Positions 2 to 16,760 of a DNA stretch of 20,556 nucleotides are shown piece after piece (position 1 is the first letter of the stretch; every line of letters begins with the position of its first letter). The notes below the pieces were generated by a model, which ran no database searches, was not told the origin of the DNA, and saw nothing but the letters and a program-made list of their open reading frames with translations. Source of the DNA: Escherichia coli. GTDB taxonomy: Bacteria > Pseudomonadota > Gammaproteobacteria > Enterobacterales > Enterobacteriaceae. The translations under genes and the position numbers were made by a program. The stretch is taken from assembly GCA_022664555.1 (NCBI GenBank), contig GCA_022664555.1_4839.2; one strand, given 5' to 3'.

Positions 2-154
2 ACCCATACCCGCGAACAGGGATTCATCGACAACCAGGGCAACTTCCTCACTCGTGAAGAGGCATGCATCGTAGCCCGTGAAGCTGGACAGATCAATCAG
101 GTGCGCCTGAAGACAACCCCGTTCCGCGAACTCTTTTCCGAAGACCTCTATTGA
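2..154 (+). CDS. 3' end of a gene truncated by the window edge (C-terminal ~50 aa), function unknown
   Basis: Frame 2 is open from the window edge to TGA at 152-154 (...GFIDNQGNFLTREEACIVAREAGQINQVRLK...). Not in the ORF track because it has no start in the window. Confidence 0.35.
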   Translation, partial: THTREQGFIDNQGNFLTREEACIVAREAGQINQVRLKTTPFRELFSEDLY

Positions 155-160
155 AGAAAA

Positions 161-194
161 AGGCGGTATTATACCGCCTCGACCTCTTGTTTGG
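161..194 (+). terminator. Possible intrinsic terminator after the truncated upstream gene
   Basis: Stem aggcggta/taccgcct (161-168 / 172-179) followed by a weak T-rich stretch (ctcttgtttgg). Confidence 0.3.
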
Positions 195-3827: not shown

Positions 3828-3851
3828 ATAAAGATTCAGCGGTTATTGAAG

Positions 3852-3883
3852 AAGGGGGAGTATATACTTCCCCTTAGTTTATT
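3852..3883 (+). terminator. Rho-independent terminator
   Basis: 10-bp stem aagggggagt/acttcccctt (one G-U pair) with loop atat, followed by agTTTATT. Preceded by the 10-mer gttattgaag. Confidence 0.6.
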
Positions 3884-5351: not shown

Positions 5352-5962
5352 GGTAAGAGCAGTCCATCATCCCGCTCCGTTGGGGCGGGTTTAATCTCCT
5401 TCCGCATCTGTTCTTTCAAGAATCTGACACGCTCGGCATGTCGGCGATCTTGCATCTCCATATCCCGTTTCTTTTTCGACTTCAATTCGAACTGTTTACG
5501 AACATCCGGATCTTCACCTGGAACAAGATGCTCTTCGGTCCAGATAATGAACTTCCAGTTCTTCTTGGCACACAGTTCGCGGGTGGCCTCCCACTTGGCA
5601 GAATTGACCAACCAGGTTCGCATCGCATTGTTGAACGTCGACTCCTTCATGTTCGGAGTCTTCTTCGGCTGCTTGATCTGGTCTTTGGGCTTGATCTCAA
5701 TGAGGGTGACCTGTAGTTCCTCTTGCCCTTCACGGCGCGTCCAGACCTTGAGGTCCATGAAGTAACGATGGGTGCGCCCGTCTACTGGGGAAATGTAAGG
5801 GATTACGGTCTCCTCGTTTTCCCAGAAAATGATCGCAGGATTAGTATCACAAAACTTGAAAGCCACAAGTTCCAAAGAAGATCGAAATACGATTTTGTTT
5901 GGGTTGCCTTTGTACTTTTTAGGATTGACAGGAACATATTTCCCTTGAAGATATTGCGCCAT
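5348..5962 (-). CDS. Hypothetical protein with PD-(D/E)xK-like nuclease motif and lysine-rich C-terminus
   Basis: ATG at 5962 with GGAGGA upstream, overlapping the seg stop (TAATG). Motif ...PYISPVDGRTHRYFMDLKVW... (D ... D-L-K). Confidence 0.5.
   Translation of the reverse strand: MAQYLQGKYVPVNPKKYKGNPNKIVFRSSLELVAFKFCDTNPAIIFWENEETVIPYISPVDGRTHRYFMDLKVWTRREGQEELQVTLIEIKPKDQIKQPKKTPNMKESTFNNAMRTWLVNSAKWEATRELCAKKNWKFIIWTEEHLVPGEDPDVRKQFELKSKKKRDMEMQDRRHAERVRFLKEQMRKEIKPAPTERDDGLLLP
5371..5395. terminator. Possible bidirectional terminator hairpin between convergent genes
   Basis: cccgctcc-gtt-ggggcggg stem-loop followed by TTTAAT. It lies in the last codons of the minus-strand ORF, so the assignment is tentative. 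Confidence 0.3.
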
Positions 5963-6699
5963 TATGCTTTCCTCCAACCTTTATGCTGTAAATTGCGACC
6001 CTTGTTTACGTGGCCCATGGAGCCTTCGCTCAAACCGATTTCTTTACAAAATTTTGCCAGGTTGACAATTGTCACCAACTGCCCTTCTGGGTTGATGAAT
6101 TTGAATTCTCGGGAATTGGCCTCGGATATTCTCTCGCGCCCTTCTTTCGTCACAGCCCCTTTGCAATTAGAGTAATCTACCAACCCCAATTCAACAAGTC
6201 GCTTATTTGAATTTCTTATTTTGTCCCTGGTTTGCTGGTCTACAACACAACCAAATCTTGGGTTATTTTCTCCCGAACGATCTTTTCCAAACCAAAAATT
6301 TCTAGAACCGTTTAGCGCTCTTGAACGATAAATTCTTTCCAGTTCTTCTTTTGGTTTAGAGAGTAATGTGTTCAGAGCTTTGGTAGACGCCTGCTTTCTA
6401 GCCTCTGGGTCTGAATTGATGTGGTCGAAGGATCCACATCCACCCAGCGTCAAATTGTATGTATCTTCCCTTTCTATAAAATCTTTGGTTACTATTCTGG
6501 ATTCTTCTAGGTACATTTGTTCCTGAGTTTCACACTCCAATAAAATATCCTTTCTGAAGTTTTCAACTCCATGTTTCTTGATTGCTCTGGTTATCATAAC
6601 ACCAGAACCCATATAGCCATCATCCGGTTCGCCTTTGTGGGCACCAACATATATCTTACCGTTTAGAAGATTGGTTATCTGGTAGACGAAGTATCTCAT
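5962..6699 (-). CDS. GIY-YIG homing endonuclease (Seg-like)
   Basis: N-terminal YFVYQITNLLNGKIYVGA ... GYMGSG ... E ... N matches the GIY-YIG catalytic module. C-terminal half has NUMOD-like DNA-binding repeats. GC is visibly lower than in the flanks. Confidence 0.8.
   Translation of the reverse strand: MRYFVYQITNLLNGKIYVGAHKGEPDDGYMGSGVMITRAIKKHGVENFRKDILLECETQEQMYLEESRIVTKDFIEREDTYNLTLGGCGSFDHINSDPEARKQASTKALNTLLSKPKEELERIYRSRALNGSRNFWFGKDRSGENNPRFGCVVDQQTRDKIRNSNKRLVELGLVDYSNCKGAVTKEGRERISEANSREFKFINPEGQLVTIVNLAKFCKEIGLSEGSMGHVNKGRNLQHKGWRKA
5962..6699 (-). mobile_element. Free-standing homing endonuclease gene inserted between nuclease and baseplate genes
   Basis: Same ORF as the Seg-like CDS; intergenic placement and compositional difference from neighbours. 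Confidence 0.55.
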
Positions 6700-6749
6700 A
6701 ATCTAGTCCTAAATAGTCATAACACTCTATCTATTTAAGGGCTGAGACC

Positions 6750-7718
6750 ATGGCCGACTTCAAGAAGACAATCGATAAGATCAAGGTTCTGAACACCAAG
6801 GGATTGTCCCAGGCTCAGAAGCAATTGTCTTATCCCCTGGACGTCACTGGGGGTAAGACCTTAGGACACTATGTCCTATTCAACATCAACCGCATCTCCG
6901 GTTCATCTTATGGCAATACGGCTACTCAGACTATCGAGAACCCAATACAGAACCCTCTGGGGAATACTCCTGTGGTCTATGGGTCCAAGTCTGGTTCCAT
7001 CACCAAATATGCATGGGCGCGTCACGTTCGTTCAAACGAGTCCATCGTCTTGTGTATGCCAGAGTCCATTACAACCAACTATGGTGTTGGCTGGAACGGT
7101 AGTGAGCTGGGGCTGGCTGGAATGGGTGCACAGTTCCTTTCCCGCGCCGCCCAAGACATGACTCAGTTTAAACTGGGTGATGCACTCAACGTCGGGAAGG
7201 AGATGGGGCGATTCGCTGCCACCAAGGCTATCCAATCTGCATCGGAGGCTATCCCGTTCCTGCCGAGCATTAACGCCCATGACACCCTTGAGTTGTTCAC
7301 AGGCACCATGACCAACCCATATGTGGAGATGATCTTCCAGGGTGTTCGCAACCGTGAGATTCCATTTACATTCAAATTCACGCCGCGATCTCAGAAGGAA
7401 GCCAAGATGGTCCGTGAGATCATCCGCATGTTCAAGATGCATATGTACCCAGAGTACAAGTACAACAAGAATTCCAGCGCGTTTTACTTGCATCCTTCAA
7501 CATTCGACATTACGTTCATGGTCAATGGGGAGCGTAACCAGTGGCTACACCGCATCTCCACTTGTGTACTTTCCAACATGTTCGTCAACGAGACGCCGGA
7601 CAGTTCATACGCGGTTCACAAAGATGATGGTATCGTGTCCACGCAGGTTGACATGACCTTCATCGAACTGGAGCCTCTGCATAAAGGGCGCTTTGAAACC
7701 GAAGGCGATAGCTTCTAA
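6750..7718 (+). CDS. Baseplate/tail-tube junction protein with tail-tube fold (gp19-family; gp54/gp48-like by size)
   Basis: 322 aa. C-terminal REIPFTFKFTPRSQKEAKMVREIIRMFKMHMYPE resembles the conserved tube-protein motif. First gene of a + strand structural operon. Confidence 0.6.
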   Translation: MADFKKTIDKIKVLNTKGLSQAQKQLSYPLDVTGGKTLGHYVLFNINRISGSSYGNTATQTIENPIQNPLGNTPVVYGSKSGSITKYAWARHVRSNESIVLCMPESITTNYGVGWNGSELGLAGMGAQFLSRAAQDMTQFKLGDALNVGKEMGRFAATKAIQSASEAIPFLPSINAHDTLELFTGTMTNPYVEMIFQGVRNREIPFTFKFTPRSQKEAKMVREIIRMFKMHMYPEYKYNKNSSAFYLHPSTFDITFMVNGERNQWLHRISTCVLSNMFVNETPDSSYAVHKDDGIVSTQVDMTFIELEPLHKGRFETEGDSF

Positions 7719-12988: not shown

Positions 12989-14419
12989 TCACCCATTATC
13001 CTTCTCCAACAGGAATGCGATGTTTTCGATGTACGCTTTCTGTATCGCATAGACTTCATCCAGTGTGTTGGCCACTTTCTTGTCAATGCGGACTTCTACA
13101 AGGCGAGGTAGGAACAAAGACTTCATCGCATCATCTGTCTTATCCTGTACGCCATTGGAGAGCACTGCGGCGATCTTGCCAATGTAGTCGCCCTGGTTCT
13201 CCCACATATGGCGTCTCAGCTCATCTGAGATCCCTGATACGCCAACAACAAGCAGGCTGTCGGAAGTTTTACAAATCAGTGAGCCAAAAGTCTTGGCGTG
13301 TTTACCCTTCTTGTCGGCCTCGTTGAAGCCCACGATTTCAAGGTCACACTCAACCTCCATCTTCAGCTTCAGACCTTCAGAAGAAGTACCATCTTCCCAA
13401 GGCATGTCGGCGGCCTTACATATCGTACCTTCTTCTTTGCGAGCCAGCGCGTCTTTGAAGTGGTCGACGGCTTCGGCAAATGAGTGAACAACACGAGTTT
13501 CCTGAACCTGAACCAGACCGTCGTCTTCACAAAACATTTGCATGATCATGTCGAAGCGGGTTTCATACGGGGTGTCCACGCGCTGGGCGTTGAACCAGTT
13601 GTCGTACGGGACAACATCCCACACCCGGTAGATCACCCGATAACGATCTTCTAGGGGTTCTCCTGTCTGAATCACGCTGTTGAGTTTACCGTTACCGACA
13701 GCACGAGGCAGGATGGTATTCGACTTGAGGTCAACAACGAGAAGTTCACCATGGAACACACTCTCACCAATCCCCGCATCGTAGATGATGTCCTTGAACA
13801 CCAGTGACAGGTTGTCAACCGAACCGCCTGCGATAAGGGAACCGGATCGAGAGCGAATCTCAGGCTCTTTATTGTACCGACATATGATGTTGGCGAACAT
13901 GCCGTCTGACTTCAGCTGGCTGTAGACAACACGCTTGAAGTCCATCTTCTTCAGCAGGTCAATCGTCATGTTGTCATAACGATGATACGGAAGAATGTTG
14001 ATCAGGCGTCCAGTGCCTCCGGCGGCGTTGAATGCAGCGTTGATGCCCTTCTCAGCGATACCCGCCTTGATATCACGGTCTAGGATCATCTGAATGAGTT
14101 CGTGGTATTGGGGATCCATCTTCAGGGCGACAGAGGCCAACAGGGCATCAGCCTTTTGGCCACCGACAAGGCGCTGCGCCATCTGGTCGAGGACGCCATA
14201 GACTTCGCTAATGTCATCAGTCTTCTCACGGACGAGCATGCGAGGGTACGCGCTGAGCTTCAACTCAGTCCGATAGAACGACGTCATTGGGTCATAGACA
14301 TACTGCAGGAAGTCTGCCAAGTCTGGGTTGTTCTTGAATGCTTCGGTCAGCACGGCTTTCTTCGCATTGCTGCCTTTGGTTTCGCGAAGTCGGTGGACTG
14401 TTTCAAGGATAGGGATCAT
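12989..14419 (-). CDS. 30: ATP-dependent DNA ligase (T4 gp30-like)
   Basis: 476 aa. Adenylation motif KSDG (YSQLKSDGMF), HGELLVVD, EGTICK and C-terminal OB-like region. ATG at 14419 with GGAG upstream. Confidence 0.9.
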   Translation of the reverse strand: MIPILETVHRLRETKGSNAKKAVLTEAFKNNPDLADFLQYVYDPMTSFYRTELKLSAYPRMLVREKTDDISEVYGVLDQMAQRLVGGQKADALLASVALKMDPQYHELIQMILDRDIKAGIAEKGINAAFNAAGGTGRLINILPYHRYDNMTIDLLKKMDFKRVVYSQLKSDGMFANIICRYNKEPEIRSRSGSLIAGGSVDNLSLVFKDIIYDAGIGESVFHGELLVVDLKSNTILPRAVGNGKLNSVIQTGEPLEDRYRVIYRVWDVVPYDNWFNAQRVDTPYETRFDMIMQMFCEDDGLVQVQETRVVHSFAEAVDHFKDALARKEEGTICKAADMPWEDGTSSEGLKLKMEVECDLEIVGFNEADKKGKHAKTFGSLICKTSDSLLVVGVSGISDELRRHMWENQGDYIGKIAAVLSNGVQDKTDDAMKSLFLPRLVEVRIDKKVANTLDEVYAIQKAYIENIAFLLEKDNG

Positions 14420-14424
14420 GTGGT

Positions 14425-14465
14425 GTCTCCAGGGTTATATGTGCTGCTATTATAACCCTGGGGAC
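14425..14465 (-). promoter_or_regulatory. Stable hairpin in the ligase 5' leader that sequesters the Shine-Dalgarno sequence
   Basis: Perfect 11-bp inverted repeat ccagggttata / tataaccctgg with 11-nt loop, extendable to about 15 bp. The minus-strand GGAG SD lies within the 3' arm, 6 nt from the ATG. Confidence 0.5.
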
Positions 14466-14532
14466 TTCAATAGATTATTGGTGGGTGCGGGATTTTGCCT
14501 GGCCGATAATGAGGTCAGTGTGTAGTCCTCGG

Positions 14533-14874
14533 TTATTTCTTCGGGGGTTCAATTGAGGTGAAAGAATCCTTCCAACTCTTGAATTTTTCAACCAGGGCTT
14601 CTTTACCCAGCTTGTCATTTGACACGCTGTGAATATAGGCAAATGCTCCATAGCCGGATCCTGGCATAGCCTTGCAGATGCGCAGACTGACCAAAGAATC
14701 TCCTACGGAAACAAGATAGTGGTCACGACGATTGTTCGGGGCATAATGGTTGTCGTGAAACTTGTCAATAACAACACAGTTCTGAGGTTCGACGTCAATC
14801 GGTAGCCCGTTGGCTTCGGATCCGCCGCGCCCAAGTACGCAGCCTGGGAATAATGTTTCTAAGAGTGTAGTCAT
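14533..14874 (-). CDS. Hypothetical protein (113 aa)
   Basis: ATG at 14874 with AAGGA 7 nt upstream; preceded by a ~250-nt non-coding region. Confidence 0.55.
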   Translation of the reverse strand: MTTLLETLFPGCVLGRGGSEANGLPIDVEPQNCVVIDKFHDNHYAPNNRRDHYLVSVGDSLVSLRICKAMPGSGYGAFAYIHSVSNDKLGKEALVEKFKSWKDSFTSIEPPKK

Positions 14875-15657: not shown

Positions 15658-16760
15658 AATTTCCTCAATTTGGCTCTGGTGACCTGAGTTTGTTTAACGC
15701 CGTTGTACTCAGTCAGTTCTTTGACACGACCACGGATGATCATATCGCCCTGCAAGAACTCTGTATCCATATAAGAGGTCTTCCAGGTAATTGTATTGCC
15801 TTCTGCTGTTTTGAAAGTAAACAGGTAGCTATCACCATATTCATTGGAGAAGAGGAAGGTGCGCTTGTCGAACCTGACTTGCACTTCCAGCATTTCACCG
15901 ACTTCACCCACCCATTTGTTCTCCGCCTTGCGGTCAGTACGAGGACGATGGATGTAATCGTAATACTTCTTGGCACCCCAGCGGACTGTGTTGTTATCCT
16001 TGATGAGGTGATAGCCGGGTTCACACATGCGTTTCAGGCGAACATTGAACTCATTAGATTCGGACAGCGCACTGATGAAGAGCTTCATATGGTACATTTC
16101 CGACTCGGCATCTTCACGGTATTCGTGTGCCTTGTTTACGAAATACTCTTCATCGGAACCTGCTTTTGGTTTCTGGTGAGACCGGACATAGCCCAGGACT
16201 TTGTCAAACAGTTCAGACTTGATATCCACGCCTGCCAACATCACCTGGAAGCATGCGCGCAGGAAACTGTGGGTGTCGACGAAGCGCTCATTTTGGACGC
16301 GATATATACCCTCTGGGTCGTCCTCGTCTGGCATGAAGAACTCTTGGATTTCCAGATAGTAAGACATAATCGCGTCAAGCGATTTCTGATGAGGTACATA
16401 ATGATGCATACAGGTGCTACCAATCAGCATCTGGGTGTGCGTTTCCTCATTTTCAATCACATACGTGTTCTTGCGACGGATGACTAGATTGCAATGCTGA
16501 CACCAAGAGACGTTCTCTGTCTCGAAGCGACGGATGAAGTCAGGATTGATGTTGTCAGACAGGCGGTTAAGAATAACTTTTGGATATTCGTGATTGAACT
16601 GACCGATGATTTTCCAGCCACCATAAGAGACGGGGCGGTCAATGCCTTCGCCTTCGAGAGTAACAGGTTTCCACCAGTGAGTAAGGATCTCACCAGTGAA
16701 GTCGCGGGTGTGGGTTTTGAAGGGTTCACCATAAGTCACAGTCGGAAACGGAACACCCAA
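15654..16760 (-). CDS. Hypothetical protein (up to 368 aa) with Cys/His cluster and OB-fold-like C-terminus; start codon uncertain
   Basis: Long ORF with no ATG in the first ~117 codons (the track start is TTG at 16760). Cluster WCQHCN...STCMHHY. C-terminal beta-rich segment VGEVGEMLEVQVRFDKRTFLF...ITWKTS. Confidence 0.55.
   Translation of the reverse strand: MGVPFPTVTYGEPFKTHTRDFTGEILTHWWKPVTLEGEGIDRPVSYGGWKIIGQFNHEYPKVILNRLSDNINPDFIRRFETENVSWCQHCNLVIRRKNTYVIENEETHTQMLIGSTCMHHYVPHQKSLDAIMSYYLEIQEFFMPDEDDPEGIYRVQNERFVDTHSFLRACFQVMLAGVDIKSELFDKVLGYVRSHQKPKAGSDEEYFVNKAHEYREDAESEMYHMKLFISALSESNEFNVRLKRMCEPGYHLIKDNNTVRWGAKKYYDYIHRPRTDRKAENKWVGEVGEMLEVQVRFDKRTFLFSNEYGDSYLFTFKTAEGNTITWKTSYMDTEFLQGDMIIRGRVKELTEYNGVKQTQVTRAKLRKL

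What the first reader, a model, noticed from the sequence alone, without database searches (positions are those of the whole stretch)
14425..14465. 15-bp hairpin occluding the DNA ligase ribosome-binding site
A perfect 11-bp inverted repeat (ccagggttata ... tataaccctgg), extendable to about 15 bp, lies immediately upstream of the ligase start. Its 3' arm on the minus strand contains the GGAG Shine-Dalgarno sequence, 6 nt from the ATG. No U-tract follows, so it is unlikely to be a simple terminator. It looks like a translational control or RNA-processing element.
Basis: seen in the sequence. Interest (0 to 1): 0.55.

Follow-up and report, generated by a model that had tools for sequence, protein, structure and literature searches.

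The report
Ligase ribosome-site hairpin containing a promoter
A conserved RNA hairpin hides the ribosome-binding site of a phage DNA ligase gene, and because the gene's own likely promoter sits inside the hairpin, probably only transcripts started there can be translated; phage T4 is known to use the same trick.

Summary
On the minus strand, 14465-14451 pairs with 14439-14425: 11 perfect base pairs, one C.A mismatch, then 3 more pairs. The GGAG Shine-Dalgarno (SD) sequence (14430-14427) lies in the 3' arm, 7 nt (not 6) before the ligase ATG (14419). No U-tract follows.

The window is from an Ackermannviridae phage, 97% identical to Escherichia phage YX22. The hairpin is kept in five to six lineages: 92% of alignment cells pair. 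Changes are compensatory (A-U/G.U/G-C, U-A to G-C, G-C to A-U). The G.U states fit only the sense RNA.

There is also a conserved upstream box (TCTATT, 14474-14469) and an invariant A seven nt downstream (14442). The geometry matches about 20 other promoter-like sites in the genome.

Read-through RNA would need 14-22 kcal/mol to open the ribosome-binding site (RBS). RNA started at 14442 lacks the 5' arm and would need 2-7 kcal/mol.

The best reading is a T4 e/soc/49/I-TevI-type gate that depends on where the transcript starts. Here it uses a non-late promoter on a replication gene. All evidence is computational: no transcript 5' end or translation measurement exists. It is a new member of a known kind, of moderate interest.

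The parts
12989..14419 (-). ATP-dependent DNA ligase gene (476 aa; end coordinate includes the stop codon), the regulated cistron
   Evidence: ORF list. Pfam PF01068, E = 3.8e-14. Annotated as DNA ligase in YX22 and many relatives.
14417..14419 (-). Ligase start codon ATG
   Evidence: The N-terminus aligns with the annotated starts of relatives.
14427..14430 (-). Shine-Dalgarno GGAG, 7 nt before the ATG, inside the 3' arm
   Evidence: Invariant in 17 of 17 aligned leaders.
14425..14439 (-). 3' arm of the hairpin (TATAACCCTGGAGAC)
   Evidence: RNAalifold consensus.
14440..14450 (-). Loop (ATAGCAGCACA). Variable in relatives except the AT that completes TATAAT, plus A14445 and A14442.
   Evidence: Alignments A1 and A2.
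14451..14465 (-). 5' arm of the hairpin (GTCCCCAGGGTTATA). It coincides with the promoter spacer and the first four bases of the -10 hexamer.
14449..14454 (-). TATAAT, putative -10 hexamer of the ligase promoter, 29 nt upstream of the ATG (30 by the convention)
   Evidence: Invariant in 17 of 17 leaders, including the two bases that are not paired. Same geometry as about 20 other promoter-like sites in YX22.
14442..14442 (-). Predicted transcription start (A, seventh nt after the -10; +/-2 nt). RNA from here lacks the 5' arm.
   Evidence: Invariant A in an otherwise variable loop. Inferred, not mapped.
14469..14474 (-). Conserved upstream box TCTATT (TTTATT in the Taipeivirus phages L009/L050), 14 nt from the -10. 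It sits where the recurrent TTCAAT box lies in other promoter-like sites.
   Evidence: Invariant TATT core. Comparison with YX22 sites. Homology between IME250 and the Klebsiella phages begins exactly here.
14475..14477 (-). Stop codon TAA of the upstream reading frame. It is at -58 in 9 of the 14 relatives checked (no stop in the -58..-54 window in L003, L004, L015, L053, L054; Kuttervirus TAG about -61), and at least 9 nt before the stem where located.
14533..14874 (-). Upstream 113-aa gene. Its transcripts would read into the ligase gene because no terminator lies between them.
   Evidence: A promoter-like TTCAAT (14928-14923)-N14-TTTAAT (14908-14903) lies upstream of it.

Best explanation
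The hairpin is a translational gate set by where the transcript starts, of the kind known from phage T4 genes e, soc, 49 and I-TevI.

Transcripts that start upstream, for example at the promoter-like site before the 113-aa gene, run into the ligase gene. They contain both arms. The 14-15 bp helix forms and buries the GGAG, so the ligase cistron on these RNAs is poorly translated.

The ligase gene's own promoter has its spacer and -10 hexamer (TATAAT, 14454-14449) in the DNA that encodes the 5' arm. RNA polymerase starting there begins at about A14442, in the loop. That mRNA carries only the 3' arm, has a free Shine-Dalgarno on a 23-nt leader, and is translated. Ligase synthesis is thereby tied to its own promoter and uncoupled from upstream transcription.

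Shown here: the helix, its conservation and covariation, the conserved promoter-like elements, and the computed accessibility difference. Inferred: the start site, promoter activity, read-through, and the size of the translational effect.
For: 1. The structure is real and conserved. In 17 distinct leaders from Agtrevirus-like, Limestonevirus, Kuttervirus and Taipeivirus phages, IME250, Bullseye and CRW-SP2, 91.8% of cells pair, against 25-54% when the 3' partners are slid. The covariation score is 0.148 against 0.114 +/- 0.011, reached by 0 of 500 shuffles. Pair types include A-U/G.U/G-C at 14459/14431, U-A to G-C at 14455/14435, and G-C to A-U at 14465/14425. RNAalifold predicts the same helix on its own.

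2. One-sided changes go through G.U. These would be C.A mismatches on the other strand or in duplex DNA, which points to sense RNA.

3. Promoter signals not explained by the helix. The unpaired AT of TATAAT is invariant. A14442 is invariant in a variable loop. The TCTATT box upstream of the helix is conserved. The whole block is gapless from the box to the ATG, apart from a 1-nt insertion in CRW-SP2.

4. In YX22, about 20 intergenic sites read TTCAAT(AA)-N14-TAT(A/T)AT with the -10 ending 29-37 nt before a start codon. The ligase value is 30.

5. Opening the RBS (-14..+6) costs 14-22 kcal/mol in read-through RNA and 2-7 kcal/mol in RNA starting at the predicted +1, in all 7 lineages tested.

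6. No terminator lies between the upstream gene and the ligase gene. Where located, upstream stop codons end at least 9 nt before the stem, so terminating ribosomes should not open it (inference).

7. The same architecture recurs in the genome. Genes with a late-like xTAAATA motif 20-45 nt upstream lose a median 4.2 kcal/mol of RBS occlusion when the RNA starts 24 nt upstream. Motif-less genes lose 0.3 (p = 5e-8).

8. The mechanism is established experimentally in T4 (Uzan and Miller 2010, PMC3014915).
Against: No transcript 5' end, promoter assay or translation measurement exists for any Ackermannviridae phage in the searchable literature.

The site has no sigma-70-type -35 hexamer. The consensus scan does not call it, and a 14-nt spacer is too short for unmodified sigma-70 holoenzyme. 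Promoter activity would therefore need an unidentified factor; these phages are reported to lack MotA and AsiA.

Among 31 YX22 genes with a TATAAT-like -10, only the ligase gene and one other show strong upstream-arm occlusion. The ligase case is therefore an exception in its promoter class.

The upstream promoter-like site is of the same class, so a temporal rationale is unclear.

Covariation rests on few independent events among closely related phages.

In the short RNA the SD is still predicted to pair weakly with codons 3-5.
Confidence: 0.6

Rival explanations
1. A cis-repressing leader hairpin present on all ligase mRNAs. Transcription starts upstream of 14465 and the TATAAT is conserved only as stem sequence. 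Translation needs the helix to be opened by a trans factor, by temperature, by a ribosome-standby mechanism, or by cleavage.
For: The helix and SD occlusion are real and conserved. No canonical sigma-70 promoter is called at the site.
Against: The unpaired AT of TATAAT, A14442 and the TCTATT box are invariant although the helix does not need them. The -10-to-ATG distance equals that of about 20 other promoter-like sites. No alternative promoter is visible between the upstream stop codon (14475) and the stem. The loop sequence is not conserved, so a loop-specific binding factor is unlikely.
Confidence: 0.14
2. A DNA-level palindromic operator. A dimeric phage or host protein binds the two half-sites CCAGGGTTATA (centres 22 bp apart), which span the -10 to about +18, and represses the ligase promoter.
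For: The palindrome overlaps the putative promoter core. Half-site sequences are strongly conserved.
Against: In Kuttervirus and Taipeivirus the arms differ by two adjacent positions that pair only as G.U. This means an imperfect DNA palindrome but an intact RNA helix. Changes preserve complementarity rather than sequence (Bullseye, CRW-SP2). The exact motif occurs once per genome, so no regulon is apparent.
Confidence: 0.07
3. An RNA-processing or stability element. It would be an RNase III (or other endonuclease) site like T7 R1.3 upstream of the T7 ligase gene, or a 3' stabiliser for the upstream cistron's mRNA.
For: It is an intercistronic, stable hairpin without a U-tract. T7 has an RNase III site before its ligase gene (general knowledge).
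Against: 14-15 bp in a single stem is short of the roughly two helical turns typical of RNase III substrates (general knowledge). No Rfam family matches. Precise registration of the 3' arm on the SD in every lineage is not needed for processing or stabilisation.
Confidence: 0.07
4. No function as a structure. The complementarity is a by-product of two independently conserved elements, a promoter and an RBS.
For: An 11-bp inverted repeat somewhere in 20 kb is not rare (10% of surrogates). Both arms have sequence-level reasons to be conserved.
Against: Three pairs show changes on both sides that keep pairing, including positions in the promoter spacer and the 5' UTR that have no other known constraint. 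Slid registers pair 25-54% against 92%. Helix stability of -16.5 to -24.6 kcal/mol is kept in seven lineages.
Confidence: 0.06

Closest known systems
Phage T4 gene e (lysozyme) leader: an RBS-sequestering hairpin with late promoters in the region encoding its 5' strand
   Same: The SD is buried in a helix on long read-through transcripts. A promoter immediately upstream of the RBS lies in the DNA that encodes the 5' strand, so its transcripts lack that strand and are translated. A 100-fold effect has been measured in T4 (PMC3014915). The same architecture is seen here: 5' arm = promoter spacer plus -10, 3' arm = SD.
   Different: In T4 the internal promoter is a gp55-type late promoter (TATAAATA) and the gene is late. 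Here the hexamer is TATAAT with an upstream box, and the gene is a replication enzyme. The phage family differs (Ackermannviridae). Nothing has been measured here.
T4 soc, gene 49, I-TevI, and Aeromonas phage Aeh1 mobE RBS hairpins
   Same: Inhibitory helices at translation initiation regions that silence early or middle read-through transcripts (PMC3014915).
   Different: Those genes are late structural, nuclease or homing-endonuclease genes. No ligase or other core replication gene is on the list.
Late-motif hairpins in the same phage genome (e.g. YX22 tailspike genes 121551-124214, 124567-127593, 127696-130677, and 150863-151030)
   Same: The promoter-like motif forms the start of a 5' arm that pairs with the RBS region. 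The computed opening cost is large in long RNA and small in short RNA.
   Different: Those use xTAAATA (late-like) motifs, and the motif itself pairs with TATTT next to the ATG. The ligase gene uses the TATAAT class, where only one other gene behaves this way.
T7 RNase III site R1.3 upstream of T7 ligase gene 1.3
   Same: A hairpin immediately upstream of a phage ligase gene.
   Different: The T7 sites are longer bipartite stems that are cleaved by RNase III and do not occlude the SD (general knowledge). Here there is a 14-15 bp simple stem registered on the SD.
T4 gene 43 translational operator (hairpin plus RBS bound by the DNA polymerase)
   Same: A hairpin next to or overlapping the RBS of a replication gene.
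   Different: The gp43 operator depends on conserved loop bases. Here the loop varies, apart from bases explained by a promoter.

Membership tests
T4-type promoter-embedded RBS-sequestering hairpin (e, soc, 49, I-TevI) | The Shine-Dalgarno and/or AUG is paired in a stable RNA helix on long transcripts | tested here: met
   GGAG 14430-14427 lies in the 3' arm. P(unpaired) is about 0 in 210-nt RNA. The helix is -16.5 to -24.6 kcal/mol in 7 lineages.
T4-type promoter-embedded RBS-sequestering hairpin (e, soc, 49, I-TevI) | A promoter lies in the DNA encoding the 5' strand, so its transcripts lack that strand | tested here: inconclusive
   Sequence evidence only: an invariant TATAAT 14454-14449, an invariant A14442, a conserved TCTATT box, and genome-typical geometry. 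No 5' end has been mapped.
T4-type promoter-embedded RBS-sequestering hairpin (e, soc, 49, I-TevI) | Transcripts from upstream promoters read through into the gene | tested here: inconclusive
   No terminator-like site lies between 14874 and 14419 on the minus strand. A promoter-like site is present at 14928-14903. Transcripts were not observed.
T4-type promoter-embedded RBS-sequestering hairpin (e, soc, 49, I-TevI) | The internal promoter is a gp55-type late promoter (TATAAATA) | tested here: not met
   The hexamer is TATAAT. The late-like motif of this genome is xTAAATA(C/T/G) and is absent here.
T4-type promoter-embedded RBS-sequestering hairpin (e, soc, 49, I-TevI) | A measured drop in translation from long versus short transcripts | not testable with these tools
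   Only computed opening energies are available: 14-22 against 2-7 kcal/mol.
RNase III processing site (T7 R1.3 type) | About two helical turns of dsRNA, usually a bipartite stem with an internal loop | tested here: not met
   A single stem of 14-15 bp. The criterion comes from general knowledge.
Intrinsic (rho-independent) terminator | A GC-rich stem immediately followed by a U-tract | tested here: not met
   ACACCACAUG follows the stem. The scan finds no terminator here.
Protein-bound translational operator (T4 gp43 type) | Conserved loop or single-stranded recognition bases | tested here: not met
   The loop differs in every lineage, except for AT (end of the -10), A14445 and A14442. Binding itself cannot be tested here.
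Canonical sigma-70 promoter | A -10 TATAAT plus a -35 TTGACA-like hexamer at 16-18 bp | tested here: not met
   The -10 is perfect. No -35 is found at 16-18 bp, and the site is not called by the scan. The conserved box lies 14 bp upstream.
Any Rfam RNA family | A covariance-model match | tested here: not met
   No match with E <= 1 in 14300-14650 on either strand.

The most novel reading that the evidence does not exclude
Ackermannviridae may gate translation by transcript origin across the genome. A dozen or more genes would have their own promoter built into the 5' arm of a hairpin that hides the ribosome-binding site. The ligase gene would be a pre-replicative example that uses a so far uncharacterised promoter class (TTCAAT/TCTATT box, 14-bp spacer, TATAAT). 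Because the spacer is too short for sigma-70 alone and these phages lack MotA and AsiA, that class would have to be read by an unknown phage-modified RNA polymerase. The hairpin would then tie ligase synthesis to that unknown factor's activity.
Probability: 0.3. Interest if true: 0.55.

Novelty: new member of a known kind. Interest (0 to 1): 0.36.

Why it matters
If confirmed, this would extend the T4 'read-through RNA is silent, promoter-proximal RNA is translated' device. It would then apply to a different phage family, to a core replication gene, and to a non-late promoter.

It would also give a concrete, testable anchor for the promoters of ViI-like phages: one conserved -10, an upstream box and a predicted start site. 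The founding genome papers could not identify these promoters (PMC3184105, PMC3121705).

For annotation and engineering of these phages, which are widely used as biocontrol agents, it warns that placing the ligase gene, or genes inserted near it, under upstream transcription may not yield protein.

Tried and rejected
1. Repeated element: the 24-nt motif occurs once in the window, even with 3 mismatches allowed, and once per genome in IMG/VR, always at the ligase gene. It is therefore not a dispersed repeat.

2. Canonical sigma-70 promoter or intrinsic terminator: neither is called at the site.

3. Rfam: no family matches.

4. Late promoter reading: TATAATA does not fit the genome's xTAAATA late-like motif or T4's TATAAATA.

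5. Metagenome scan for more ligase loci gave only two, one nearly identical to the window and one 33% identical and uninformative. This limits the depth of the covariation sample.

6. Distant Ackermannviridae: Serratia 3M and the two Vibrio phages lack the block and the hairpin. Erwinia phiEa2809 has a similar promoter-like site but only a 5-bp stem. The hairpin is therefore confined to the Aglimvirinae/Kuttervirus/Taipeivirus/IME250 group.

7. Translational coupling: in every lineage where the upstream stop codon was located, it ends at least 9 nt before the stem, so a terminating ribosome should not open the helix.

8. Literature: no TSS or transcriptome data for the family were found. The LIMEstone1 GenBank record annotates promoters and terminators, but none at the ligase gene.

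9. Generalising the architecture to all TATAAT-class promoters failed. Only 2 of 31 show strong upstream-arm occlusion. It does hold for late-motif genes.

Full report
**Observation**

On the minus strand the window reads GTCCCCAGGGTTATA (14465-14451), ATAGCAGCACA (14450-14440), TATAACCCTGGAGAC (14439-14425), ACACCAC, then ATG (14419-14417). The arms form 11 perfect pairs (14461-14451 with 14439-14429), one C14462.A14428 mismatch and three outer pairs. GGAG (14430-14427) is in the 3' arm. No T-run follows, and the terminator scan is negative.

The 136-nt leader folds to -34 kcal/mol with this hairpin (z = -4.4). The hairpin alone is -18.9 kcal/mol. By itself an 11-bp inverted repeat in 20.5 kb is only mildly unusual: 0.115 are expected and 10% of surrogates hold one. 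The case therefore rests on position and conservation.

**Context**

The window is from an Ackermannviridae phage. It is 97% identical to Escherichia phage YX22 (Aglimvirinae), and the leader is 100% identical to that of vB_EcoM-ZQ1. The ORF 12989-14419 is an ATP-dependent DNA ligase (PF01068). It lies in a minus-strand cluster of replication and recombination genes: a recombination and repair protein, a gp41 helicase and a helicase loader.

The upstream 113-aa gene ends at 14533. The 60 nt down to the TAA at 14477-14475 are the relic C-terminus of a small membrane-protein gene that is intact in other lineages. In nine of the 14 relatives checked (L001, L002, L007, L009, L012, L014, L016, L050, L052) a stop codon sits at -58; one search reported no stop within -58 to -54 for L003, L004, L015, L053 and L054, and in Kuttervirus the upstream gene ends with a TAG about 61 nt before the ATG. 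Where it was located, the stop ends at least 9 nt before the stem.

**Conservation**

Ligase loci came from IMG/VR, GenBank phages and one metagenome. They show one block running from the upstream stop codon to the ATG. It is gapless, except for a 1-nt insertion in CRW-SP2. It is present in Agtrevirus-like, Limestonevirus, Kuttervirus and Taipeivirus phages, Serratia IME250, Klebsiella Bullseye and Salmonella CRW-SP2. Homology between IME250 and the Klebsiella phages begins exactly at this block.

On 17 distinct leaders:
- 91.8% of cells form standard pairs, against 25-54% when the 3' partners are slid.
- The covariation score is 0.148 against 0.114 +/- 0.011, reached by 0 of 500 shuffles.
- Pair 14459/14431 is A-U, G.U or G-C.
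- Pair 14455/14435 is U-A, or G-C in Bullseye.
- Pair 14465/14425 is G-C, or A-U in CRW-SP2.
- The C.A mismatch of the window lineage is U-A everywhere else.

RNAalifold predicts the same helix independently. The one-sided changes pass through G.U, which pairs only in the sense RNA. This argues for RNA and against a DNA palindrome. Serratia 3M and the Vibrio Ackermannviridae lack the block. Erwinia phiEa2809 has only a 5-bp stem.

**A promoter inside the hairpin**

Three conserved features are not needed by the helix:
- The last two bases of TATAAT (14450-14449) are unpaired yet invariant.
- A14442, seven nt after the hexamer, is invariant in a loop that otherwise differs in every lineage.
- The box TCTATT (14474-14469), 14 nt upstream of the hexamer, is conserved outside the helix.

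I assembled the whole YX22 genome. About 20 intergenic sites read TTCAAT(AA)-N14-TAT(A/T)AT, with the -10 ending 29-37 nt before a start codon. The ligase site (30 nt) fits this geometry, and its box sits where TTCAAT sits in the others.

The site is not a canonical sigma-70 promoter: it has no -35 hexamer at 16-18 bp. The founding papers on ViI-like phages report that early and middle promoters could not be identified and that MotA and AsiA are absent (PMC3184105, PMC3121705). The LIMEstone1 record annotates promoters but none at the ligase gene. Promoter function is therefore a well-supported inference, not a demonstration.

**Consequence**

RNA started at about 14442 carries only the 3' arm. 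The computed cost of opening -14..+6 is 14-22 kcal/mol in RNA that begins 150 nt upstream. It is 2-7 kcal/mol in RNA that begins at the predicted start. This holds in all seven lineages tested (CRW-SP2).

No terminator separates the ligase gene from the upstream gene. That gene has its own promoter-like site (TTCAAT 14928-14923, TTTAAT 14908-14903), so read-through RNA is expected.

**Genome-wide view**

Ranking all 185 testable YX22 genes by RBS opening cost puts the ligase gene 12th, at 16.5 against a median of 6.7 kcal/mol. Eleven of the top 18 have a late-like xTAAATA motif at the start of the 5' arm, pairing with TATTT next to the ATG.

The 25 genes with that motif lose a median 4.2 kcal/mol when the RNA starts 24 nt upstream. 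The 129 motif-less genes lose 0.3 (p = 5e-8). Promoter-embedded occlusion is therefore common in this genome for late-type motifs. Among the 31 genes with a TATAAT-like -10, however, only the ligase gene and one other show it. The ligase case is exceptional within its promoter class.

**Mechanism and rivals**

The best explanation (confidence about 0.6) is the T4 e/soc/49/I-TevI mechanism (PMC3014915). Long transcripts are translationally silent for the ligase gene. Transcripts from the embedded promoter are open.

The rivals are:
- A leader hairpin present on all ligase mRNAs that some factor must open (0.14).
- A DNA operator (0.07).
- An RNase III or stability site (0.07).
- A by-product of promoter and RBS conservation (0.06).

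The evidence against each is given in the structured fields.

**Comparison and novelty**

The element works like the T4 elements and meets the structural criteria. It fails one feature of the T4 set, because its promoter is not a gp55-type late promoter, and the gene is a replication enzyme. I file it as a new member of a known kind, in a family where promoters are still poorly defined.

**Limits**

All evidence is computational. The covariation rests on a handful of events in closely related phages. The biological rationale (timing versus stoichiometric uncoupling) is open, because the upstream promoter-like site looks like the same class.

Noticed in passing
window 17699-17672 (-), 14928-14903 (-), 151-172 (+), about 3838-3866 (+); YX22 loci L044-L047: There is a recurrent promoter-like class, TTCAAT(AA)-N14 (range 12-16)-TAT(A/T)AT, with the -10 ending 28-37 nt before start codons. 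About 20 sites occur in YX22. The spacer is too short for a sigma-70 -35 element. The box sits where the T4 MotA box would, yet these phages reportedly lack MotA and AsiA.
   Followed up: partly
window 161-179 (+), 3852-3875 (+), 17687-17663 (-); YX22 145961, 153559, 151070, 86231, 35330, 40336 and others: Many of these -10 hexamers lie in the loop of a GC-rich inverted repeat, often followed by a T-run. These look like intrinsic terminators with the next gene's -10 in the loop. Some lack a T-run, and those are unexplained.
   Followed up: partly
YX22 (L046) 124257, 127633, 130721; also L045 95935 and 52090 region; L047 150827: A late-like motif xTAAATA(C/T/G)C lies 24-43 nt before structural genes (12 of 18 CTAAATA sites are intergenic). 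Its ATACCCC part pairs with GGGGTAT at the RBS of three tailspike genes, in hairpins of -18 to -21 kcal/mol. This appears to be the unidentified late promoter of ViI-like phages.
   Followed up: partly
window 6709-6716 (+) and 6738-6731 (-): Between the divergent genes 5962-6699 (-) and 6750-7718 (+) lie two late-like motifs, CTAAATAG and TTAAATAG. They are reverse complements of each other's RBS-proximal sequence, so each mRNA could fold CCTAAATAG...CTATTTAAGG.
   Followed up: no
window 14475-14532 (-): The 'intergenic' 60 nt upstream of the promoter block encode ...DLIIGQAKSRTHQ*. This is the relic C-terminus of a small single-pass membrane protein gene that is intact in P46FS4 (L001) and Klebsiella RCIP0012 (L050). 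The stop codon is at -58 in nine of the 14 relatives checked.
   Followed up: yes
window 16956-16934 (-): An intrinsic terminator, AAGCCCAGT-CAAGT-ACTGGGCTTTT, is followed directly by a TTCAATAA box, upstream of the gene that starts near 16760.
   Followed up: no
YX22 (L046) 139160-139219 (+): This is the only other TATAAT-class gene with strong occlusion. The hairpin TCTATATTCCTGTAGA...TCTACAGGAGAAATAGA has TATGAT in its loop. The RBS opening cost is 17.1 against 1.8 kcal/mol.
   Followed up: no
YX22 (L045) 87152-87616: A RegA-like 'translation repressor protein' is annotated next to the clamp-loader genes, as in T4. The ligase initiation region is not AU-rich, so it is an unlikely target (the inference rests on general knowledge of RegA sites).
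   Followed up: no
L052 (Klebsiella phage Bullseye) and MW650886/OL615011 hits: In some relatives the ligase match is split or truncated: two pieces spanning about 3.3 kb in ZQ1 and Gloob, and only the first 245 nt in Bullseye. This suggests insertions, possibly homing endonucleases, within the ligase gene.
   Followed up: no
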